Shown here in pieces: positions 1-10,218 of a DNA stretch of 64,000 bases. The stretch lies in NCBI RefSeq assembly GCF_058153355.1, contig NZ_CM177019.1. One strand, written 5' to 3'. Numbering within the stretch: position 1 is the first letter of the stretch; each line of letters begins with the position of its first letter. A program made the translations under genes and the position numbers. Under the pieces are notes generated by a model. The model had not been told where the DNA came from and did no database searches. It saw nothing but the letters and a program-made list of their open reading frames with translations.

Positions 1-1184
1 TTGTAACCCTGTCCTAAATCCTCTTTTTTCGATTGTGACGGAAAAATTCCAAAGTTGGTTTGACTTTTATACGTCAGCTGGAAGGCCTTACCCTGTTGTG
101 TTTCCAGCGTGATATTTTCACCTTCAGATAAACGTTCTTGTAGGCGAGTAAGTGCGCTATCCAACATTTCCTGCGCACCAGCATGACCAAAGGCGGCATC
201 CTCGCATATCTGTTTAAAAATACCTGCCTTTATTTCGTATTTTACATTACCGTCATCAGTAGTCTCAGCTCTTAAACCTTCAATAAACTCTTCATAACCA
301 AAGCTCTGATGAAAGGTGATAAAACGCACTCGATTATCTTTGATAAGCTGATCATAAATCTTTTTCAACTCGCGACGTTTTTCACTCTCATCCTTACCCT
401 CCTGCAGGGAGTAAGCGATCGGATCACAAATTTGTACAGCAAGCTCAATAGTACGATATGTTTTACCTGTACCTGGCGGGCCATAGAGAATTGTGTTTTT
501 AGGCAATGGCGAACTTATAACATCATCTTCTTGCTCATTTTCTTGTAAAGCACTTTCGCTTCCAACTAAACCGATAGCATTTTTATCCTGAATTTCATAC
601 GCATAGAGATGCCAAAGTGACATATTCAGCTCAATAGGGTCGATATCATCACCCAGCGCACGATTTAGCGTTTCTTTAAGATCAACATTGCGAGCCAGCC
701 ACTCCCGTTCTCCGGAAAGACCTAGCTGGAAATGGTTGTTGCAATAATTGTAGCAACTAAAAAAATTATTAACATTCACGACACTGCTAATTTTTGATGG
801 GTATATTGCTGCAAAAGCACGATTACAAAGAGCCCTATATACCTTATTTAATACTCCGTCCGCTTTAAGTTTGATAAGACGTTCAATGACCCGATTATAA
901 TTTTCTTGTGTACACTCTTCTGCTATCTGACGGGTGAGCGTTAGAAGGTCTTTTTGTGCATTTTCAAATTCAACCAATGACATCCCACCTTGCATCAGGC
1001 TGGAGACACCATTGTCACGTTCATACCATACCTGCCGAATCGTGGCTTCAGAAAAGTTTGGTTTTTCGGCCTGAATCTGTTCTACAAGCTCGCGGTAGTG
1101 TTTGCCCCAAACTGAATTGTATTGATTATTTTTTTCAATTTGAGCACGAAAGAAGGGGGCTAATGCTGATGAATCCTGAACCAT
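1..1184 (-). CDS. McrB-family AAA+ GTPase (restriction-system motor subunit homolog), N-terminal ~394 codons only; the 3' end runs off the window start
   Basis: Minus-strand reading frame opens at ATG (plus coords 1182-1184) and, as translated by hand, continues without stop to position 1. Contains a Walker A motif GPPGTGKT (around 459-482) and, further on, FHQSFGYEEFIEG, which resembles the McrB signature FHQSYSYEDFIQG. It is absent from the supplied ORF track, presumably because it is incomplete. Confidence 0.6.
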   Translation of the reverse strand, partial: MVQDSSALAPFFRAQIEKNNQYNSVWGKHYRELVEQIQAEKPNFSEATIRQVWYERDNGVSSLMQGGMSLVEFENAQKDLLTLTRQIAEECTQENYNRVIERLIKLKADGVLNKVYRALCNRAFAAIYPSKISSVVNVNNFFSCYNYCNNHFQLGLSGEREWLARNVDLKETLNRALGDDIDPIELNMSLWHLYAYEIQDKNAIGLVGSESALQENEQEDDVISSPLPKNTILYGPPGTGKTYRTIELAVQICDPIAYSLQEGKDESEKRRELKKIYDQLIKDNRVRFITFHQSFGYEEFIEGLRAETTDDGNVKYEIKAGIFKQICEDAAFGHAGAQEMLDSALTRLQERLSEGENITLETQQGKAFQLTYKSQTNFGIFPSQSKKEDLGQGY

Positions 1185-1542
1185 CTCTTAATCCAATATG
1201 TAGGGGGGAGGGAAATTGGGATAGCCTTATCTTATCGGATTAATCTCAAAAATGTTAAATTTTATGATAAAAAAAAACTTTCATCCTGAAATTACCTTCT
1301 GCCCTGGAGCCGCCACATTTATCTGATGACTTTGAACTGCAAAACGCATGGTGTTGGTGGTTCTCAGAGAAGGCCATAGCATTCTTTCAGACGTAAAATC
1401 GCTACTCGTTTTTCAACCTGTGTGCATTTTCTAGTTGCATAGGGAATCAACTGTTTTTCAGGTAGGTATTGTTTACAGTAAATGGATATGCCGAAATTCA
1501 GAGGGTTCCAGTAACGACATTTTGACAGCAAACATACGACAT

Positions 1543-2376
1543 TCATTTTGCTGATAACGCTGACGGATAGTGCTTCGCCACAATGTCATTCATCTTATCC
1601 ACCAGATCCAGTCGCTTGAATGTGATGTGTCCACTGCCTTTCTGGTAATAGCGGATGACAAATAAATCGTCATTAAATACCTGCTCATGCGGGTGAGCAC
1701 TAACGAAGTCCATAAACCGAATCGCAACATCATGCCGGTTATCGGGAATGGCCTTCCCATCCAGCAGATAGAACATCCGTTCCAGATCGGCAAGCTGATC
1801 TCGCCGCCAGCCCCAGTGCAGGCTGTAACCCCATCGGTCATGCTTCACCAGATTGTTAACGATAATCTTCTTACCGAAATAACAGGGATTATTGGTTTTG
1901 TAATCCCAGCTCAATCCCTTAAATACATTGATAATCCCACGTTCGAAAACGTCATGCTTATTGTGGTGGAGTTGTTCAAAGGTACTCAGGATGTTGGCTT
2001 CGCTAATCGCCGGGAGATCGCCCTCCTCCAGGTTCTTTGCCCACTGACTGCGGGCTTCGGCATCCATCAGAGTCAACATCCCGGACTTCAGCATGAGATC
2101 GCGCCAGATGCTGCGATCGATATTGCGGGTGATCGCCGACATCGCTTTGTCGGTTGGTTGCATCAGCCAGCAGTCAAAGGCATATCCATTACGCATTCCC
2201 CAGGTTCCAGCCACATCACCGCCAATACTGGATGTCAGACTGGAGATATCATCCAGTTTTTGGATTAGCGTCGCTATCAGCTTCAGTGCGCTATCACGTC
2301 CTGTGACGATACGCTCAATATTGGTCGAGCGAATTATCTCGTTGTGATCGGTTAAGACTTCAGCTTCTGTTTGCAT
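1543..2376 (-). CDS. Hypothetical protein, 277 aa, function unknown; lies between the McrB-like gene and the divergently transcribed hsdM
   Basis: Longest ORF in the interval and same strand as the McrB-like gene 358 bp downstream. I see no nucleotide-binding or methyltransferase motif. The plus-strand ORFs overlapping it (1687..2268, 2093..2347) look like antisense shadows. Confidence 0.45.
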   Translation of the reverse strand: MQTEAEVLTDHNEIIRSTNIERIVTGRDSALKLIATLIQKLDDISSLTSSIGGDVAGTWGMRNGYAFDCWLMQPTDKAMSAITRNIDRSIWRDLMLKSGMLTLMDAEARSQWAKNLEEGDLPAISEANILSTFEQLHHNKHDVFERGIINVFKGLSWDYKTNNPCYFGKKIIVNNLVKHDRWGYSLHWGWRRDQLADLERMFYLLDGKAIPDNRHDVAIRFMDFVSAHPHEQVFNDDLFVIRYYQKGSGHITFKRLDLVDKMNDIVAKHYPSALSAK

Positions 2377-2682
2377 AATCTTTCATCCGTAAAAAAATAC
2401 ACTCGCCGTTAGTAGCAGACGGATTATCCTCTGGTGAAAGATTGGGTAAATAATGAGATTGAAAATCGGGAAGGTGACTCGCAATAAATTATCTGATCAC
2501 CTACGGATGGACGATGGGCATATAAAATAGCCTCCTGACTCAAACGGTGAATGCTGAATAAGATGCACTAACAATCTGGTACTGAATCCCCTCCTCACCG
2601 TCATACAAATCTGAAAAACCAAAAAACTTCCGGTAAAATCCCGGCAAAAGCCGACGTTAAAAACACATTCAAAGGATAAAAA

Positions 2683-4239
2683 ATGACCAGTCTTCAGCAG
2701 CGCGCGGAGCTTCATCGCCAAATCTGGCAAATTGCTAACGATGTCAGAGGTTCGGTCGATGGATGGGATTTTAAGCAATACGTTCTGGGCGCGCTTTTCT
2801 ACCGTTTTATCAGCGAAAATTTTTCCAGCTATATTGAAGCCGGTGATGACAGCATCTGTTATGCGAAACTGGATGACAGCGTAATTACTGATGACATTAA
2901 AGACGATGCCATCAAAACCAAAGGCTACTTCATCTACCCAAGTCAGCTTTTCTGCAACGTAGCTGCGAAAGCAAATACCAATGACAGACTGAACGCAGAT
3001 TTAAACAGCATCTTCGTTGCTATCGAAAGTTCTGCTTACGGTTACCCTTCAGAAGCTGACATCAAAGGTTTGTTTGCTGATTTCGATACCACCAGTAACC
3101 GCCTGGGTAATACCGTTAAGGATAAAAATGCCCGCCTGGCCGCGGTTCTGAAAGGGGTTGAAGGGTTAAAGCTTGGCGACTTTAACGAACATCAGATTGA
3201 CCTGTTCGGCGATGCCTATGAGTTCCTGATTTCTAACTATGCGGCGAATGCCGGTAAGTCAGGCGGCGAGTTCTTTACACCGCAGCACGTCTCTAAGCTG
3301 ATTGCACAACTGGCTATGCACGGGCAGACCCACGTTAACAAAATCTACGACCCGGCAGCGGGTTCCGGTTCGCTGTTGTTGCAGGCTAAAAAGCAGTTTG
3401 ATGACCACATCATCGAAGAAGGTTTTTTTGGTCAGGAAATCAACCATACGACCTATAACCTGGCGCGTATGAACATGTTTTTGCACAACATCAACTACGA
3501 CAAGTTTGATATCAAGTTGGGCAATACGCTGACTGAGCCGCACTTCAGAGATGAAAAACCGTTTGACGCCATCGTATCTAACCCACCGTATTCGGTGAAA
3601 TGGATAGGCAGCGATGACCCGACGCTGATTAACGATGAACGTTTTGCCCCGGCTGGCGTCCTGGCCCCCAAATCAAAAGCTGACTTCGCCTTTGTACTAC
3701 ATGCGCTGAACTATCTTTCTGCCAAAGGTCGTGCTGCGATTGTCTGCTTCCCGGGTATTTTTTACCGTGGCGGCGCAGAGCAGAAAATCCGTCAGTATCT
3801 GGTTGATAATAACTATGTCGAAACCGTGATTTCACTGGCTCCGAACCTGTTCTTTGGCACCACCATTGCCGTCAATATTCTGGTGTTGTCTAAACATAAA
3901 ACCGATACCAAAGTTCAGTTTATTGACGCCAGCGAACTATTCAAAAAAGAGACTAACAACAACATTCTGACCGATGCCCATATCGAACAGATTATGCAGG
4001 TATTTGCCAGCAAGGAAGATGTTGCTCATCTGGCGAAATCTGTCGCGTTTGAGACCGTTGTCGCTAATGACTATAACCTGTCGGTAAGCAGCTATGTGGA
4101 AGCGAAAGATAACCGCGAAATTATCGATATCAGTGAGCTGAATGCTGAGCTGAAAACCACGGTCAGCAAAATCGACCAGTTGCGTAAAGATATTGATGCG
4201 ATTGTGGCTGAAATTGAAGGCTGCGAGGTGCAGAAATGA
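2683..4239 (+). CDS. hsdM: Type I restriction-modification system DNA methyltransferase subunit M (type IC-like)
   Basis: 518-aa ORF with an N6-adenine methyltransferase NPPY motif ([11 protein letters not shown]) and the AdoMet-binding region ([11 protein letters not shown]). RBS aaaggat sits upstream of the ATG at 2683. The stop overlaps the hsdS start (ATGA at 4236-4239). Confidence 0.9.
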
Positions 4240-5390
4240 ACGAGTTGAGTTATCTGGAAAAATTACTGGATGGGGTTGAGGTTGAGTGGTTGCCATTGGC
4301 TAAAGTTTGTCGTTTAATAAACGGGAGAGCATATAAGCAAGAAGAACTGCTTTCCAAAGGCAAATATCCAGTATTAAGAGTCGGTAATTTTTTTACTAAC
4401 CAAAATTGGTATTACTCAGATTTAGAATTAGATCAAGACAAGTATTGTGATAACGGTGACCTTTTATATGCTTGGTCCGCATCATTTGGTCCAAGAATTT
4501 GGCATGGGGGTAAATCTATTTACCATTATCACATATGGAAAGTGGTTCCAGATTCGAATCTTATTTGTAAACAGTTTCTATATTACTTGTTACAATGGGA
4601 TACTAAAGCACTTAAAGATGCACATAGCACTGGTTCTACTATGATGCACATCAGCAAAACTACAATTGAAAAAAGGTTAGTCCCCATCCCCTGCCCGGAT
4701 AATCCGGAAAAATCCCTTGCCATCCAGTCTGAAATCGTTCGGATTCTGGATAAATTTACTGCACTTACCGCTGAGCTTACCGCTGAGCTTAATATGCGAA
4801 AAAAACAGTACAACTACTATCTCGACCAGTTACTGAATCTTGAGGGTAGGGAAAATACTCGAGAAATGAGGATAGGTGATATTTATGATTTTCAGTATGG
4901 AACAGGCAATACAATTCCTAAATCTGGAGGGCAATATCCTGTTTATGGTAGCAACGGGATTGTAGGCTCCCATGACAAATATAACAGCGAAGACTCACCT
5001 GTTATTGGCCATATAGGTGCTTACGCAGGAATCGTTAACTGGGGCCAGGGTAAGCATTTTGTTACATACAACGGAGTTATTTGTAGGCACAAATCGAAGG
5101 AAGTTCTTCAAAAATACGCCTACTATTTATTACTTTTACAAGATTTCGGTTCAAAATCTAATAGTGCATCACAGCCTTTTGTTTCATATAACATATTAAA
5201 TGCTCCTATTGTTTTGGTTCCCCCTTTACAAGAGCAAGCTCGTATCGTCGCAATACTCGATAAATTCGACACCCTGACCAACTCCATCACCGAAGGTCTT
5301 CCGCGTGAAATCGAGTTGCGCCAGAAACAATACGAGTACTATCGTGATTTACTGTTCAGTTTCCCAAAACCTGAAACTCTCAGTAATTAA
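4236..5390 (+). CDS. hsdS: Type I restriction-modification system specificity subunit S (type IC-like, two target-recognition domains)
   Basis: 384-aa ORF translationally coupled to hsdM. It has two AT-rich variable regions separated by a conserved central region containing TAEL repeats, plus a conserved C-terminal region ([30 protein letters not shown]), as in EcoR124-type HsdS. Confidence 0.85.
4767..4790 (+). repeat. Two tandem copies of a 12-bp repeat ACCGCTGAGCTT (encoding TAEL-TAEL) in the central conserved region of hsdS
   Basis: Direct reading: accgctgagctt accgctgagctt at 4767-4790. In type IC HsdS, the copy number of this repeat is known to set the spacer length of the recognition sequence. 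Confidence 0.85.
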
Positions 5391-5511
5391 TTGACCATTA
5401 TTACAGACCGGACCATCTTAATATCCGGTCAGTATATAGACTATTTTTTACACGCCGGAAGTCACCATTAACCCCCTTCCGGCCCTTGCCAGACGGCACA
5501 AAGGATGCGCT

Positions 5512-8500
5512 ATGACTCATCAAACACACACCATTGCTGAATCCAATAACTTTATCGTTCTTGATAAGTACATCAAAGCTGAGCAAACAGGCGACAGCTA
5601 TCAGAGCGAATCGGACCTGGAACGTGAACTGATTCAGGACCTGCAAAATCAGGGCTATGAATTTATACCCGTAAAATCACAGTCAGCGATGCTGGCCAAC
5701 GTTCGGGAACAGCTTCAGAGCCTCAATGGTGTGGTGTTTAATGACAGCGAGTGGCGGCGTTTCACGGAGCAGTATCTGGATAACCCGAGCGATGGCATTC
5801 TGGATAAGACCCGTAAAATCCATATCGACTATATTTGCGACTTTATTTTTGATGACGAGCGACTTGAGAACATCTATTTGATAGATAAAAAGAATCTCAT
5901 GCGCAATAAGGTGCAGATTATCCAGCAGTTTGAACAGGCGGGTTCCCACTCTAACCGCTATGATGTCACGATCCTGATTAATGGCTTACCACTGGTACAA
6001 ATCGAACTGAAAAAGCGCGGCGTGGCGATTCGTGAGGCTTTCAACCAGATACATCGTTACAGTAAAGAGAGTTTTAACAGCGAAAATTCCCTGTTTAAGT
6101 ATCTGCAACTGTTTGTCATTTCTAACGGCACCGATACCCGTTACTTTGCCAACACCACAAAGCGCGATAAAAATAGTTTTGACTTCACCATGAACTGGGC
6201 GAAATCAGACAACACGCTGATTAAAGACCTCAAAGATTTTACCGCTACCTTTTTCCAGAAACATACTCTGCTTAATGTTCTGGTGAACTACAGCGTGTTC
6301 GATATTAGCCAGACGCTACTGGTGATGCGACCGTACCAGATTGCCGCCACCGAACGAATCTTATGGAAAATCAACAGCTCCTATAAAGCGAAAAACTGGT
6401 CTACCCCCGAAAGCGGTGGCTTTATCTGGCACACCACCGGTTCCGGTAAAACCCTGACCAGCTTTAAAGCTGCGCGTCTGGCAACAGAGCTGGACTTTAT
6501 TGATAAAGTCTTCTTCGTGGTCGACAGAAAAGACCTCGATTACCAGACCATGAAGGAATATCAGCGTTTTTCGCCAGATAGTGTTAACGGTTCGGAAAAT
6601 ACCGCAGGCCTGAAACGAAATCTGGATAAGGACGATAACAAAATTATCGTCACCACTATTCAGAAACTTAATAACCTGATGAAAGCAGAAAGCGACCTGC
6701 CTGTATACAATCAGCAAGTGGTGTTTATATTTGATGAATGTCACCGCAGCCAGTTTGGAGAAGCGCAGAAAAACCTGAAGAAGAAATTCAAACGCTATTA
6801 TCAGTTTGGTTTTACCGGCACACCTATTTTCCCGGAAAACGCTTTAGGCTCAGAAACGACCGCCAGCGTATTTGGTCGTGAATTGCATTCGTATGTGATT
6901 ACCGATGCGATTCGTGATGAAAAAGTGCTCAAATTCAAGGTGGACTATAACGATGTGCGGCCACAATTTAAGTCTTTAGAGACAGAAACCGACGAGAAAA
7001 AACTGAGTGCGGCTGAAAATCAGCAGGCGTTTCTTCATCCCATGCGTATACAGGAAATTACGCAATATATTCTGAATAACTTCCGCCAGAAGACCCACCG
7101 TACTTTCCCAGGTTCCAAAGGCTTTAATGCCATGCTGGCAGTGAGTAGCGTGGATGCCGCGAAAGCCTATTACGCGACGTTTAAACGGTTACAAGAGGAA
7201 GCCGCTAATAAATCTGCTACCTATAAACCACTACGTGTTGCGACAATCTTCTCCTTTGCCGCTAATGAAGAACAAAATGCCATTGGTGAAATTTCCGATG
7301 AAACTTTTGATACCAGCGCAATGGACAGCAGTGCTAAAGAGTTTCTCGACGCTGCAATTCGTGAATATAACAGCTATTTTAAAACTAACTTCAGTACCGA
7401 CAGTAACGGTTTTCAGAACTACTATCGTGATTTAGCCCAACGGGTTAAAAATCAGGATATCGATCTGTTAATTGTCGTTGGGATGTTTTTAACCGGCTTC
7501 GACGCTCCAACATTGAACACGCTATTCGTCGATAAAAACTTGCGTTTTCACGGCCTGATGCAGGCATTTTCCCGCACCAACCGCATTTATGACGCCACTA
7601 AAACCTTCGGTAACATCGTCACTTTTCGGGATCTGGAACGCTCAACCATTGATGCCATAACGCTGTTTGGTGATAAAAATACCAAAAATGTGGTGTTAGA
7701 AAAGAGTTATGCCGAGTATATGGAAGGCTTTACAGATGCTGCCACTGGTGAAGCTAAACGCGGCTTTATGGCAGTAGTTTCAGAACTGGAACAACGGTTC
7801 CCTGACCCTGCCAGTATTGAAAGTGAAAAAGAGAAGAAAGACTTCGTTAAACTGTTTGGTGAATACCTGCGCGCCGAGAACATCCTGCAAAACTATGATG
7901 AATTTGCCACGCTGAAAGCCCTGCAACAAATCGATCTTAGCGATCCTGTTGCGGTAGAAAAATTCAAAGCAGAACATTATGTGGATGATGAAAAGTTTGC
8001 TGAATTACAAACGATTCGTCTCCCTGCTGAACGTAAGATTCAGGATTATCGTTCGGCCTATAACGATATTCGTGACTGGCAGCGCCGCGAGAAAGAAGCT
8101 GACAAAAAAGAAAAATCAACCACTGACTGGGATGACGTGGTTTTTGAGGTCGATTTGCTGAAGTCTCAGGAAATAAACCTGGATTATATCCTTGGACTGA
8201 TTTTCGAACACAACAGACAAAACAAAGGTAAGGGCGAAATGACCGAAGAGGTCAAACGCTTAATTCGTTCGAGCCTTGGGAACCGTGCCAAAGAAGGCCT
8301 GGTGGTCGATTTTATTCAACAAACGAACCTGGATGATTTGCCGGATAAAGCCAGTATCATTGACGCGTTCTTTATCTTTGCTCAACGCGAACAGCAACGT
8401 GAAGCAGAAGCGTTGATTAAAGAAGAAAATCTCAATGAAGAAGCAGCGAAACGCTATATTCGCACGTCTTTAAAACGCGAATACGCCACCGAAAATGGCA

Positions 8501-8628
8501 CAGAATTAAACGAGACGTTACCAAAACTTAGTCCGTTAAACCCGCAATATAAAACGAAAAAACAGACGGTTTTCCAGAAGATCGTCGCGTTTATTGAGAA
8601 GTTTAAAGGTGTAGGCGGGCAGATATAA
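5512..8628 (+). CDS. hsdR: Type I restriction enzyme endonuclease/helicase subunit R (type IC-like, 1038 aa)
   Basis: 1038-aa ORF with SF2 helicase motifs (Walker A TTGSGKT, DEAH-like [10 protein letters not shown]). The length matches type IC HsdR such as EcoR124I as I recall it. A 121-bp gap after hsdS leaves room for its own promoter. Confidence 0.9.
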
Positions 8629-8852
8629 TGTATTAATCCGAACCTGATCTGGCAGATAGCTGTCAGATCAGGACTGAGCTAATACAAATTAATATCGAAC
8701 CGAAAATACCAACGCCTGTACCAACATTTTTCGTTTGCGATGGGTTGAAATTGGTTGGCTCTGAGAGAGTTAAAATAGCGAGAAAGATAGGTAACTAATG
8801 GATCCCAGACACAAAAAAAGCCGCCCTTGAGCGACTCGATTTGCATACGATG

Positions 8853-8937
8853 TGGTGCCGAAGGCCGGACTCGAACCGGCACGTATTTCTACGGTTGATT
8901 TTGAATCAACTGCGTCTACCGATTTCGCCACTTCGGC
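8853..8937 (-). tRNA. leuX: tRNA-Leu (anticodon CAA)
   Basis: The minus-strand sequence GCCGAAGTGGCGAAATCGGTAGACGCAGTTGATTCAAAATCAACCGTAGAAATACGTGCCGGTTCGAGTCCGGCCTTCGGCACCA has acceptor stem, D-loop, anticodon loop UUCAAAA (anticodon CAA), the long variable arm of a class II tRNA, T-loop GGTTCGAGTCC and 3' CCA. Confidence 0.92.
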
Positions 8938-9132
8938 ACTGAAGAGGTATGCGGAAAACGTTGTGGATTATACCTGTCGCACGCCACCATGCAAGCGCCA
9001 GCTTGCACCCACTTTGCTAAGTGCTGAAATTTTCAGCATTGCATACCGCGATGTGTAACCTTTGTCACACTCCAGGCACCCCGCCCTACCATGCTCTACA
9101 CTTCCCAGACAACACCAGAGAAGGACAAAAAT

Positions 9133-10218
9133 ATGTCGATGATAAAAAGCTATGCCGCAAAAGAGGCTGGCGGCAAACTGGAAGTTTATGAGTACGATCC
9201 CGGTGAACTGAAGCCACAAGATGTCGAAGTGCAGGTGGATTACTGCGGGATCTGCCATTCCGATCTGTCGATGATCGACAACGAATGGGGATTTTCACAG
9301 TATCCGCTGGTTGCCGGGCATGAGGTGATTGGGCGCGTGGTGGCGCTCGGGAGCGCCGCGCAGGATAAAGGTTTGCAGGTCGGTCAGCGTGTCGGGATTG
9401 GCTGGACGGCGCGAAGCTGTGGTCACTGCGATGCCTGTATTAGCGGTAATCAGATCAACTGCGAGCAAGGTGCGGTGCCAACAATTATGAATCGCGGCGG
9501 TTTTGCCGAGAAGTTGCGTGCAGACTGGCAATGGGTGATTCCACTGCCGGAAAATATCGATATCGATTCCGCCGGGCCGCTGCTGTGTGGTGGTATCACG
9601 GTCTTCAAACCACTGTTAATGCACCATATCACTGCCACCAGCCGCGTTGGGGTAATTGGTATTGGCGGGCTGGGGCATATCGCTATAAAACTTCTGCACG
9701 CAATGGGATGCGAGGTAACGGCCTTTAGTTCTAATCCGGCGAAAGAGCAGGAAGTGCTGGCGATGGGTGCCGATAAAGTAGTGAATAGCCGCGATCCGCA
9801 GGCACTGAAAGCACTGGCGGGGCAGTTTGATCTCATTATCAACACCGTCAACGTCAGCCTCGACTGGCAGCCTTATTTTGAGGCGCTGACGTATGGCGGT
9901 AATTTCCATACAGTCGGCGCGGTCCTCACGCCGCTGTCTGTTCCGGCCTTTACGTTAATTGCGGGCGACCGCAGCGTCTCTGGTTCAGCAACAGGTACAC
10001 CTTATGAGCTGCGTAAGCTGATGCACTTTGCCGCCCGCAGCAAGGTTGCGCCGACTACCGAACTGTTCCCTATGTCGAAAATTAACGACGCCATTCAGCA
10101 TGTACGCGATGGTAAAGCGCGCTACCGAGTGGTCCTGAAAGCCGACTTCTGCTCCCTTTGCCGGGTGCCTGTCGCCCGGCTTTTAAATCTCTTTGGAAGG
10201 CGTCTCGCAATCTGCTGA
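9133..10218 (+). CDS. ahr: NADPH-dependent aldehyde reductase Ahr (zinc-dependent alcohol dehydrogenase family); the ORF runs about 22 codons past the expected C-terminus
   Basis: ORF starting [14 protein letters not shown] with the Zn-ADH motif GHEVIG and the NAD(P)-binding GxGxxG (GVIGIGGLG). The expected end ...[10 protein letters not shown] is followed here by [22 protein letters not shown] before the stop. Confidence 0.8.
10160..10184 (+). terminator. Putative rho-independent terminator hairpin (GCCGGG..CCCGGC then TTTT) at the ahr 3' end
   Basis: Inverted repeat gccggg/cccggc followed by a T run, seen directly. It lies inside the extended ahr reading frame. Confidence 0.45.

What the first reader, a model, noticed from the sequence alone, without database searches (positions are those of the whole stretch)
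1543..2376. Orphan 277-aa ORF between the McrB-like gene and hsdM with no recognisable motifs
It is a complete ORF with a plausible start, in an accessory island of defense genes, and I cannot assign it to any family from sequence alone. Proteins in this position in defense islands are often anti-phage effectors, specificity factors or regulators. The strong antisense ORFs overlapping it on the plus strand make the coding-strand call itself worth verifying.
Basis: inference. Interest (0 to 1): 0.55.

Follow-up and report, generated by a model that had tools for sequence, protein, structure and literature searches.

The report
Mobile-element entry gene, function unknown
The ORF is a real gene, but it is not an orphan: it belongs to the widespread DUF4942/YdiA family that conjugative plasmids carry next to their transfer origin and that tRNA-inserted islands carry beside their anti-restriction genes, and nobody yet knows what the protein does.

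Summary
The 277-aa ORF at 1543-2376 (minus strand) is real. Substitutions against orthologues fall mostly on its third codon positions, dN/dS is about 0.1, and the plus-strand antisense ORFs are broken in orthologues.

It is not motif-free. It matches Pfam DUF4942 end to end (E 1.4e-68), and RefSeq holds a record annotated this way that translates identically (WP_001192737.1 in E. coli E2348/69).

The family is not tied to McrBC or Type I R-M. In 81 Enterobacterales loci its constant neighbours are the same-strand genes GTPase, DUF932, KlcA, RadC, CbeA and CbtA. McrB follows it in only 1 of 80 other loci, and hsdM lies within 8 kb in 7. On plasmids, 92% of carriers are predicted conjugative, and the gene sits in the leading region next to oriT. 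Samuel et al. 2024 list it as leading-region family 24 with median position 1.

The AlphaFold model is confident (pLDDT 90) but matches no solved structure and has no methyltransferase fold. Rare phage and plasmid versions fuse DUF4942 to a small NPPF methyltransferase.

Best reading: this is a surviving backbone gene of a leuX island. It is probably an entry-phase, DNA-directed establishment or anti-restriction factor, and its flanks are a slot for defence cassettes. The mechanism is inferred, not shown.

The parts
1543..2376 (-). CDS of 277 aa, a DUF4942/YdiA-family protein. ATG at 2376-2374, TGA at 1545-1543.
   Evidence: ORF. Pfam PF13708 at E 1.4e-68, residues 83-271. Third-position substitution bias and dN/dS about 0.1. 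AF2 pLDDT 90.3. Translates identically to the E2348/69 gene annotated WP_001192737.1.
2377..2490 (-). Upstream non-coding stretch shared with island copies of the gene elsewhere. It includes a weak SD-like GGATGA at 2388-2383, a T-run at 2397-2391, and a consensus-only promoter-like match (-35 at 2450-2445, -10 at 2428-2423). The GC hairpin found here in other islands is degenerate in this copy.
   Evidence: Homology to L002, L004 and L005 starts about 115 bp upstream of the ATG and ends at the stop codon. 76-locus consensus. Folding: -24 to -26 kcal/mol with z about -4.7 in L002 and L005, against z -1.75 here. The number of promoter-like matches is no higher than in shuffled sequence.
1185..1542 (-). 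358-bp spacer between the DUF4942 stop and the McrB-family start. It is not homologous to the sequence downstream of DUF4942 in other islands, so it marks the junction to a separate McrBC cassette.
   Evidence: Homology to other islands ends at the stop codon. In Yersinia frederiksenii L071, McrBC-cassette homology begins only about 70 bp before the McrB ATG. The spacer carries no annotation in most E. coli genomes and has no Rfam hit.
1..1184 (-). Context: 5' part (394 codons) of a McrB-family AAA+ gene that runs off the window. This is defence cargo downstream of DUF4942, not a partner of it.
   Evidence: Translation with GPPGTGKT. E2348/69 annotation of McrB family (684 aa) followed by McrC. 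A McrB homologue is found downstream in 1 of 80 other loci.
2683..8628 (+). Context: Type I R-M operon hsdM (2683-4239), hsdS (4236-5390) and hsdR (5512-8628), divergent from DUF4942. It occupies the place where the RadC-CbeA-CbtA module normally sits.
   Evidence: ORFs. Annotation in E2348/69. The same divergent arrangement occurs in L069 (HsdM 93% identical) and, with an unrelated Type I system, in L031.
8853..8937 (-). Context: tRNA-Leu(CAA), which I take to be leuX from the anticodon and genomic neighbourhood. It is the presumed integration site of the island. Its 3' end faces the hsd-DUF4942 side, and no integrase remains in this strain.
   Evidence: ARAGORN. Rfam tRNA at 59.4 bits. No copy of the tRNA 3' end within 1-9100. 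GC content rises from about 0.43 to about 0.54 beyond it.

Best explanation

(1) SHOWN. It is a backbone gene of mobile elements, not a component of the neighbouring McrBC-like or Type I R-M systems.
- In tRNA-integrated islands it closes a same-strand module: GTPase, DUF932, KlcA/ArdB antirestriction, RadC, (DUF987), CbeA, CbtA, (DUF5983), DUF4942.
- In conjugative plasmids its homologues lie in the leading region, close to oriT, in the orientation that can be expressed from the entering strand.
- Here the upstream module has been replaced by hsdMSR and a McrBC cassette sits downstream. The gene and about 115 bp of its upstream region are what survives of the conserved module in an island next to tRNA-Leu(CAA), which I take to be leuX.

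(2) INFERRED. The protein acts early after the element's DNA enters a new cell, as an establishment or anti-restriction factor.

(3) INFERRED, weakest step. It works on DNA through a two-domain structure of new fold (helical bundle plus a basic alpha/beta domain) with a strictly conserved polar pocket. It either shields incoming DNA or directs or boosts adenine methylation of it. That is the role it would have in the rare versions where it is fused in front of a small NPPF amino-methyltransferase.

My confidence by step: (1) about 0.9, (2) about 0.5, (3) about 0.25.
For: Identity:
- Pfam DUF4942 at E 1.4e-68.
- PHROG families, including 'DNA methyltransferase' phrog_6263, match over the DUF4942 part.
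- dN/dS is 0.08-0.13.

Island module:
- Contexts L002-L007 and BL21.
- Clustering of 81 loci gives CbtA in 62, RadC in 60, CbeA in 54, DUF932 in 42 and GTPase in 40, all on the same strand. The downstream side is variable.
- This 'moron module', at the island end opposite the integrase, is described in PMC12458937.

Plasmids:
- 4306 of 72,556 plasmid records carry a homologue, and 3964 of those (92%) are predicted conjugative.
- In IncL/M (L012), IncK2/Z (L013) and an IncFII/MOBP plasmid (L098) the gene sits with ssb, psiB, antirestriction and JAB/RadC genes and points towards mobA-relaxase.
- In a metagenomic element it lies next to TrwC, TrwB and SSB.
- Samuel et al. 2024, Supplementary Table, list family 24 as 'Uncharacterized; DUF4942; Methyltransferase': FDR p = 0, 2171 members, median position 1 from oriT, strand 1. 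Family 76 has 551 members and median position 6.
- E. coli TAI islands are reported as oriT-only mobilisable islands (preprint 10.64898/2026.01.13.699239). I did not test here whether those islands carry a DUF4942 gene.

DNA link:
- Fusion proteins of 460-534 aa have DUF4942 at the N-terminus and a C-terminal domain with LEPSAGxGA and NPPF motifs. That domain hits Pfam MTS at 2.4e-6, and its weak best PDB match is M.TaqI.
- Phage homologues are annotated as DNA methyltransferases.
- The C-terminal domain is basic, pI 9.0.
Against: - No experiment on any DUF4942 protein was found. Only four papers mention the name, and none is functional.
- Invariant polar residues (D87, K160, N162, D197, R200, D206, D212, R214, H250, R255, N263) look more like a catalytic or ligand pocket than a passive DNA-binding surface.
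- Fusions are rare, about 5 of the best 150 representatives.
- The methyltransferase module also exists alone, with no DUF4942 gene nearby in 3 of 3 contexts examined. The fusion may simply join two independent anti-defence functions.
- This copy has no oriT or relaxase nearby, its upstream hairpin is degenerate, and whether it is expressed is unknown.
- An anti-restriction gene kept next to the island's own R-M system would have to be kept silent.
Confidence: 0.45

Rival explanations
1. DUF4942 is an enzyme of new fold, for example a hydrolase, nuclease or transferase acting on DNA, a nucleotide or a host protein, rather than a binding or adaptor module. It still serves element establishment.
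For: - A set of polar residues is invariant or nearly so across sequences of about 30% identity: D87, W91, S156, W157, Y159, K160, N162, D197, R200, D206, D212, R214, H250, R255, N263.
- The most conserved segments are loops and short helices (157-169, 190-216, 233-277) rather than a variable recognition surface.
- Other leading-region families are enzymes, such as Rpn nucleases and methyltransferases.
Against: - There is no match to any catalytic fold or motif. It is not a Rossmann methyltransferase, and I could not fit PD-(D/E)xK or a canonical beta-beta-alpha-Me arrangement to the predicted secondary structure.
- No Pfam, NCBIfam or PDB sequence hit.
- I had no model coordinates, so I could not test whether the conserved residues cluster in three dimensions.
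Confidence: 0.25
2. It is a cis-acting DNA-processing or mobilisation accessory of its own element. It binds DNA near oriT or the island end and helps transfer, recircularisation or priming, rather than countering host defences.
For: - It is typically the gene nearest oriT on plasmids (median position 1; L013).
- It closes the conserved module at the end of islands opposite the integrase.
- Every element carries its own divergent copy, up to 9 per E. coli genome. That fits element-specific recognition.
- Related E. coli islands are reported to be mobilised through an oriT alone.
Against: - The DNA downstream of the gene is not conserved between islands, and homology stops at the stop codon.
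- Phages, which do not conjugate, carry the domain fused to methyltransferases.
- The most variable parts are a loop (51-74) and a helix (217-232), while the conserved core is shared by plasmid, island and phage versions.
Confidence: 0.15
3. It is a functional component (specificity factor, regulator or effector) of the adjacent McrBC-like or Type I R-M defence system.
For: - It is immediately adjacent to both systems here.
- The McrB-DUF4942-hsdM arrangement is kept in 203 E. coli genomes.
- DUF4942 followed by McrBC also occurs in Yersinia frederiksenii L071.
- A divergent Type I R-M sits directly upstream in L069 and L031.
Against: - McrB follows it in 1 of 80 other loci, and hsdM lies within 8 kb in 7 of 80.
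- The Type I systems involved belong to different families.
- The McrBC cassette and DUF4942 share no junction sequence between E. coli and Yersinia.
- The same slots hold Septu, DarTG, AbiE and ParDE in other loci, so this is a cargo hotspot.
- No PADLOC model matches.
- Plasmid and phage homologues lack these partners.
Confidence: 0.07
4. In this chromosomal position it is an inert remnant: an intact reading frame that is no longer expressed or used.
For: - The rest of the module and the integrase are gone.
- The conserved upstream hairpin is degenerate.
- The promoter-like match is no better than chance.
- K-12 keeps only a 62-bp stub of such a gene.
Against: - The frame is intact, with 0 amino-acid differences from E2348/69.
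- dN/dS is about 0.1 against orthologues, although this mostly reflects history before the gene's arrival here.
- The arrangement is kept in about 200 genomes.
Confidence: 0.06
5. One of the plus-strand antisense ORFs (1687..2268 or 2093..2347) is the real gene.
For: Open frames of 193 and 84 codons exist.
Against: - Substitutions fall on the third positions of the minus frame.
- The antisense frame acquires stops in orthologues.
- The minus-frame product has a strong Pfam match and a confident fold.
Confidence: 0.01

Closest known systems
YdiA / YgfB (DUF4942) of conjugative plasmids; leading-region gene families 24 and 76 of Samuel et al. 2024 (PMC11541004)
   Same: Same Pfam family and full-length architecture at 37-40% identity. 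Same co-travellers (KlcA/ArdB antirestriction, RadC/JAB, DUF932/YubP-like genes) and the same polarity within the module.
   Different: The window gene is chromosomal, has no oriT or relaxase nearby, belongs to the island subfamily (62-91% identity group), and is flanked by defence cargo. The function of the plasmid proteins is also unknown.
Phage and element DUF4942-methyltransferase fusions (PHROG 6263; e.g. Pseudomonas phage phiPSA1 AHZ95053.1; P0176, P0198, P0209, P0223, P0258)
   Same: A homologous N-terminal DUF4942 unit of about 270 residues that keeps the core conserved motifs.
   Different: The fusions add a C-terminal module of about 180 aa with SAM motif I and NPPF. The window protein ends where the linker begins and has no methyltransferase motif or fold.
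KlcA/ArdB and ArdA/Ocr anti-restriction proteins
   Same: Same genomic company and the same presumed timing: leading region or island module, expressed on entry.
   Different: No sequence or fold similarity. Not an acidic DNA mimic: pI 6.4, family median 7.2.
Lambda Ral / Rac Lar restriction alleviation (functional analogy only, recalled from the literature)
   Same: A small mobile-element protein that would protect unmodified incoming DNA by boosting methylation rather than by methylating it itself. This is one version of the proposed mechanism. Some phage homologues carry a 'restriction alleviation, Lar family' label.
   Different: No homology was tested or expected, since Ral is about 66 aa. 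The label is an annotator's guess on multi-domain genes. No evidence here that DUF4942 touches HsdM.
M.EcoGIX / M.BceJIII single-strand-specific leading-region methyltransferases (PMC7736820)
   Same: Leading-region location and a role in protecting entering DNA from restriction.
   Different: Those are beta-class DPPY enzymes unrelated to DUF4942. The window protein is not a methyltransferase.

Membership tests
Pfam DUF4942 (PF13708) | Significant full-length match to the family HMM | tested here: met
   E 1.4e-68, 230.8 bits, residues 83-271 on model positions 1-189 of 190.
Pfam DUF4942 (PF13708) | Family-invariant residues present (W91, D197, H250, N263, and the SWDYKTNxPxxFG loop) | tested here: met
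   102-sequence alignment A1 and 13-sequence alignment A3. All invariant columns carry the consensus residue in the window protein.
Island 'moron'/antirestriction module (GTPase-DUF932-KlcA-RadC-CbeA-CbtA-DUF4942) of tRNA-integrated elements | Lies downstream of, and on the same strand as, the RadC-CbeA-CbtA genes | tested here: not met
   This is true of 62 of 81 loci. In the window, hsdMSR occupies that place. Only the gene and about 115 bp of shared upstream sequence remain.
Island 'moron'/antirestriction module (GTPase-DUF932-KlcA-RadC-CbeA-CbtA-DUF4942) of tRNA-integrated elements | Element inserted at a tRNA gene, with the gene pointing away from the tRNA | tested here: met
   tRNA-Leu(CAA) lies at 8853-8937 (minus strand), and the gene on the minus strand points away from it. 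No flanking direct repeat was found within 1-9100.
Plasmid leading-region gene (Samuel et al. families 24 and 76) | Located next to oriT, opposite the relaxase, in the T-strand-expressible orientation | tested here: not met
   Met for the plasmid homologues (L012, L013, L098; supplementary table). No oriT or relaxase is present near the chromosomal copy in the window.
SAM-dependent DNA methyltransferase (label given by some databases: 'methyltransferase', 'restriction methylase') | Rossmann fold with SAM motif I (GxGxG-like) and catalytic motif IV (D/N/S)PP(Y/F/W) | tested here: not met
   No methyltransferase Pfam hit. No methyltransferase among structural matches. Predicted secondary structure is a helical bundle plus beta3-alpha2-beta3-alpha. 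The sequence has no PP dipeptide. These motifs occur only in the extra C-terminal domain of the fusion proteins.
Known anti-phage defence systems (PADLOC-DB 2.0) | Match to any defence-protein model | tested here: not met
   0 families at E<=1.
McrBC-type (Type IV) restriction system, as an accessory component | Conserved co-occurrence with McrB and McrC | tested here: not met
   A McrB homologue is downstream in 1 of 80 other loci (L071), and the junction sequence is not shared.
Type I R-M system, as an accessory or specificity component | Conserved co-occurrence with hsdM/S/R, or homology to the HsdS target-recognition domain | tested here: not met
   hsdM lies within 8 kb in 7 of 80 loci, from unrelated Type I families. 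No Methylase_S or HsdM_N Pfam hit.
DNA-mimic anti-restriction proteins (ArdA/Ocr type) | Strongly acidic protein that mimics DNA | tested here: not met
   pI 6.4, net charge -3. Family median pI 7.2. No fold match.
Anti-restriction or establishment function in general | Relieves restriction of, or improves establishment of, incoming DNA | not testable with these tools
   Needs phage plating or conjugation assays. Only contextual evidence is available.

The most novel reading that the evidence does not exclude
DUF4942 is a previously unrecognised class of anti-restriction or establishment protein with a new fold. It would be the first protein made when conjugative DNA enters a cell. It would act directly on the incoming DNA, either by recruiting or boosting adenine methylation or by blocking nucleases through its conserved pocket. 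The chromosomal copy here would still be active and would soften self-restriction or cross-talk from the Type I and McrBC systems that have accumulated on either side of it.
Probability: 0.2. Interest if true: 0.7.

Novelty: already known. Interest (0 to 1): 0.35.

Why it matters
For this window, the finding resolves into an annotated family member, so it is not a discovery in itself.

The family does deserve attention:
- blastn detects it in most complete E. coli genomes (4515 of 5426, including short remnants), with up to 9 matching places per genome.
- It is present in about 6% of all plasmid records, and 92% of those are predicted conjugative.
- A published survey of plasmid leading regions ranks it among the 25 largest enriched gene families, and it is typically the first gene after oriT.
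- Even so, it has no known function and no structural relative.

If it proves to be an anti-restriction or establishment factor, it would be a new handle on how resistance plasmids and pathogenicity or defence islands get past recipient immunity.

A practical by-product: in Enterobacterales chromosomes the gene marks a slot on both of its sides where small defence systems are swapped in and out (Type I R-M, McrBC, Septu, DarTG, AbiE, ParDE).

Tried and rejected
- **Sequence libraries.** NCBIfam and PADLOC gave no hit.
- **PDB by sequence.** A single-sequence search and a 102-sequence profile gave only noise.
- **Split-gene test.** Stand-alone relatives of the fused methyltransferase domain had no DUF4942 gene nearby in 3 of 3 contexts.
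- **Other fusion partners.** A third homology search seeded from a fusion protein returned only solo proteins.
- **Catalytic motifs.** I considered an HNH or beta-beta-alpha-Me reading of H250...N263...H269. I dropped it because the His lies at the start of the second strand and H269 is not conserved family-wide. I considered PD-(D/E)xK at P211-D212 and dropped it because that segment is a loop.
- **DNA-mimic idea.** Rejected on pI.
- **M.EcoGIX.** Checked as a possible relative; it is an unrelated beta-class enzyme.
- **Island boundary.** I looked for a repeat of the tRNA 3' end in 1-9100 and found none.
- **Promoter and terminator scan.** No better than shuffled sequence.
- **Rfam on 1-9200.** Only the tRNA.
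- **Genome-wide locus search.** The first attempt, with the 102-sequence alignment, failed because no stretch was conserved enough. It worked with a 13-sequence alignment, but that kept only Enterobacterales loci, so the neighbourhood statistics describe that subfamily only.
Full report
**What is in the sequence.** An ATG-to-TGA ORF of 277 codons runs from 2376 down to 1543 on the minus strand. An in-frame stop lies 9 nt upstream of the ATG, and a weak SD-like GGATGA precedes it. The ORF lies between a McrB-family gene and hsdM. The McrB-family gene starts at 1184 on the same strand, carries Walker A GPPGTGKT, and runs off the window. The hsdM-hsdS-hsdR operon at 2683-8628 is divergent from the ORF. 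tRNA-Leu(CAA), which I take to be leuX, follows at 8853-8937. GC content then rises from about 0.43 to about 0.54, the level of the flanking chromosome.

**Which strand codes.** Three tests favour the minus frame.
- Against orthologues of 84-85% amino-acid identity from Yersinia and Klebsiella, nucleotide differences by minus-frame codon position are 25/20/101 and 36/18/106.
- Nei-Gojobori dN/dS against nine orthologues of about 80% identity or more is 0.08-0.13.
- The antisense frame has a 200-codon stop-free stretch here, which shrinks to 118 and 82 codons in orthologues.

The minus-frame product also has a strong Pfam match and folds confidently.

**What family it belongs to.**
- The protein matches Pfam DUF4942 (PF13708) at E 1.4e-68 over essentially the whole model.
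- It hits three PHROG families. One of them is labelled 'DNA methyltransferase', a 548-position profile that it matches over positions 85-287.
- NCBIfam and PADLOC have nothing.
- The DNA is 99.3% identical to E. coli O127:H6 E2348/69. That genome annotates the gene as 'DUF4942 domain-containing protein' (WP_001192737.1), and its product is identical in amino-acid sequence.
- Homologues number 2565 at E<=1e-3 in one collection and 2136 cluster representatives in another.

'Orphan' and 'no recognisable motifs' are therefore wrong. 'No assignable function' is right. Only four papers in the searched library mention DUF4942, and none studies it.

**Where the family lives: islands.**
- Close homologues in Yersinia, Klebsiella and BL21 are the last gene of a same-strand run: DUF932, antirestriction (KlcA/ArdB), RadC, DUF987, CbeA, CbtA, (DUF5983, DUF957), DUF4942.
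- I fetched 80 further Enterobacterales chromosomal loci, called ORFs and clustered them.
- Upstream, CbtA is present in 62 of 81 loci, RadC in 60, CbeA in 54, DUF932 in 42 and a YeeP-like GTPase in 40, always on the same strand.
- Downstream nothing is constant.
- This is the 'moron module' that a 2025 preprint places at the end of tRNA-integrated, defence-carrying elements opposite the integrase (PMC12458937).
- blastn finds family DNA in 4515 of 5426 complete E. coli genomes. The median is 2 places per genome and the maximum is 9. Some matches are remnants, such as a 62-bp stub in K-12.

**Where the family lives: plasmids and phages.**
- tblastn finds a homologue in 4306 of 72,556 plasmid records, and 3964 of those (92%) are predicted conjugative.
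- In an IncL/M pOXA-48-like plasmid, an IncK2/Z plasmid and an IncFII/MOBP plasmid, the gene lies in the leading region with ssb, psiB, antirestriction and JAB/RadC genes, and it points towards mobA-relaxase. In the IncK2/Z plasmid only one small ORF separates it from mobA.
- A metagenomic homologue lies beside TrwC, TrwB and SSB.
- Several island-module genes (DUF932/YubP-like, KlcA) are also top leading-region families in that table.
- A 2026 preprint reports that E. coli TAI islands are mobilised through an oriT alone, and that defence and anti-defence genes sit near the oriT in such elements. I did not check whether the TAI islands carry a DUF4942 gene.
- The island module has the same polarity as a plasmid leading region. 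That it is one is my inference.
- Phages rarely carry the domain (32 records), mostly as the front part of genes annotated as DNA methyltransferases.

**What this copy is.**
- Homology to island copies elsewhere starts about 115 bp upstream of the ATG and stops exactly at the stop codon.
- Upstream of that point, hsdMSR occupies the place of the RadC-CbeA-CbtA genes. The same divergent arrangement occurs in Enterobacter sp. Bisph1 (L069, HsdM 93% identical) and, with an unrelated Type I system, in Prodigiosinella (L031).
- Downstream, a McrB homologue follows DUF4942 in only one other locus, Yersinia frederiksenii L071. There the full upstream module is intact, and homology to the window resumes only about 70 bp before the McrB ATG.
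- In other loci the same two slots hold Septu PtuA/PtuB (between CbtA and DUF4942), DarT/DarG, AbiEi/AbiEii, ParDE and an HTH protein.

So the gene is the constant anchor and the defence systems are interchangeable cargo on both sides of it. In this strain the integrase is gone, whereas E2348/69 has one after hsdR. No repeat of the tRNA end lies within 1-9100.

**What the protein looks like.**
- With a 102-sequence alignment, AlphaFold2 gives pLDDT 90.3 and pTM 0.83.
- The model has an N-terminal helical bundle: a 31-residue helix 20-50, a variable loop 51-74, and helices 75-98, 106-118, 126-138 and 140-156.
- A conserved loop 157-169 (SWDYKTNxPxxFG) follows.
- The C-terminal alpha/beta domain has strands 170-186, helices 190-205 and 217-227, strands 233-253 and helix 256-269.
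- Foldseek finds nothing in the PDB below E 0.9.
- AFDB50 returns only family members.
- There is no Rossmann fold, no SAM motif and no (D/N)PP(Y/F) motif, so the 'methyltransferase' label in some databases does not apply to this protein.
- The protein is not acidic: pI 6.4, family median 7.2. The C-terminal domain is basic, pI 9.0.
- W91, D197, H250 and N263 are invariant. D87, S156, W157, Y159, K160, N162, P164, R200, D206, D212, R214 and R255 are at least 85% conserved.

**The fusion clue.**
- About 5 of the best 150 cluster representatives are 460-534 aa long.
- They carry DUF4942 at the N-terminus, a linker, then a module of about 180 aa with LEPSAGxGA and NPPF motifs. That module hits Pfam MTS at 2.4e-6. 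Its weak best PDB match is M.TaqI, with weak NCBIfam similarity to PglX, MAD2 and HsdM.
- The methyltransferase module also exists alone (about 250 aa) in phage-like contigs. No DUF4942 gene lay beside it in three contexts.
- The DUF4942 part of a fusion is no closer to other fusions than to solo proteins.
- The fusion therefore links the family to DNA adenine methylation. It cannot tell a recognition or targeting module from an independent anti-defence domain that happens to be joined to a methyltransferase.

**Mechanism.**
- *Shown:* family membership, purifying selection, the constant association with the antirestriction/TA module and with plasmid leading regions, and the lack of association with McrBC or hsd.
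- *Inferred:* the protein acts early after DNA entry. My best guess is a DNA-directed establishment or anti-restriction role. It would either shield DNA or promote adenine methylation of it, in cis in the fusions and in trans or not at all in the solo form.
- *Main rival:* it is an enzyme of new fold. The dense set of invariant acidic, basic and His/Asn residues favours this.
- *Second rival:* it is an element-specific DNA-processing accessory acting near oriT or the island end.
- I give the McrBC or Type I partner idea a probability of about 0.07.

**Verdict.** The object is ordinary in the sense that it is an already annotated member of a catalogued family, whose enrichment in leading regions is published. 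What remains open is the function of the family as a whole. That question is interesting, but this window does not make it newly testable.

Noticed in passing
L002:9945-9990, L005:9945-9990, L071:7950-7990; window 2391-2432 (minus strand): Island copies of the gene have a strong GC hairpin plus T-tract about 20 nt before the start codon (GCGCCTGCC-N6-GGCAGGCG TGTTTGCTTTTAT; -24 to -26 kcal/mol, z about -4.7). It is over 90% conserved across 76 loci. In Yersinia frederiksenii the stem sequence is different but still pairs. It looks like a terminator or attenuator that insulates DUF4942 from the CbtA operon. In the window copy the stem is degenerate (z -1.75) while the T-run is longer.
   Followed up: partly
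L019:5728-7853, L002:7721-9852, L070:7574-9356, L049:8074-9409, L071:9017-12396; window 1-1184 and 2683-8628: Both flanks of DUF4942 act as a swap slot for small defence systems. Septu PtuA/PtuB sits between CbtA and DUF4942. DarT/DarG, AbiEi/AbiEii, ParDE or McrBC sit just downstream. Type I R-M sits just upstream (PADLOC E-values from 1e-54 to 1e-164). The gene could serve as a marker for finding defence cargo in Enterobacterales islands.
   Followed up: partly
window 1364-1546 (minus strand): A 60-codon ORF starts with an ATG that overlaps the DUF4942 stop codon (ATGA). It is Cys-rich, unannotated in nearly all E. coli genomes, and lies in a spacer that is not shared with other islands. It is probably spurious.
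   Followed up: no
window 4236-5390 and 8629-8937; L001:16239-22303: This strain differs from its closest relative E2348/69 in two ways. HsdS is 384 aa here against 408 aa there, so the specificity is probably different. Here the tRNA-Leu(CAA) gene directly follows hsdR, whereas E2348/69 has a site-specific integrase and further genes at that point.
   Followed up: partly
window 1-1184 (minus strand): The first roughly 225 residues of the 684-aa McrB-family protein, ahead of its Walker A motif, match no PADLOC model. Only a weak IetA hit falls on the P-loop. Its DNA-recognition domain is therefore unassigned, and it is 79% identical to the protein in Yersinia frederiksenii.
   Followed up: no
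L094:5001-5771, L095:5001-5762, L096:5001-5753: A family of small stand-alone methyltransferases (about 250 aa, MTS/N6_Mtase-like), 35-45% identical to the catalytic half of the DUF4942 fusions, occurs in phage-like metagenomic contigs without any DUF4942 neighbour.
   Followed up: no
E. coli K-12 MG1655 NZ_CP010445.1:1076371-1076432 (hit H43): K-12 keeps only a 62-bp unannotated stub matching the first 62 nt of the gene (82% identity). This is a scar of a lost island copy.
   Followed up: no
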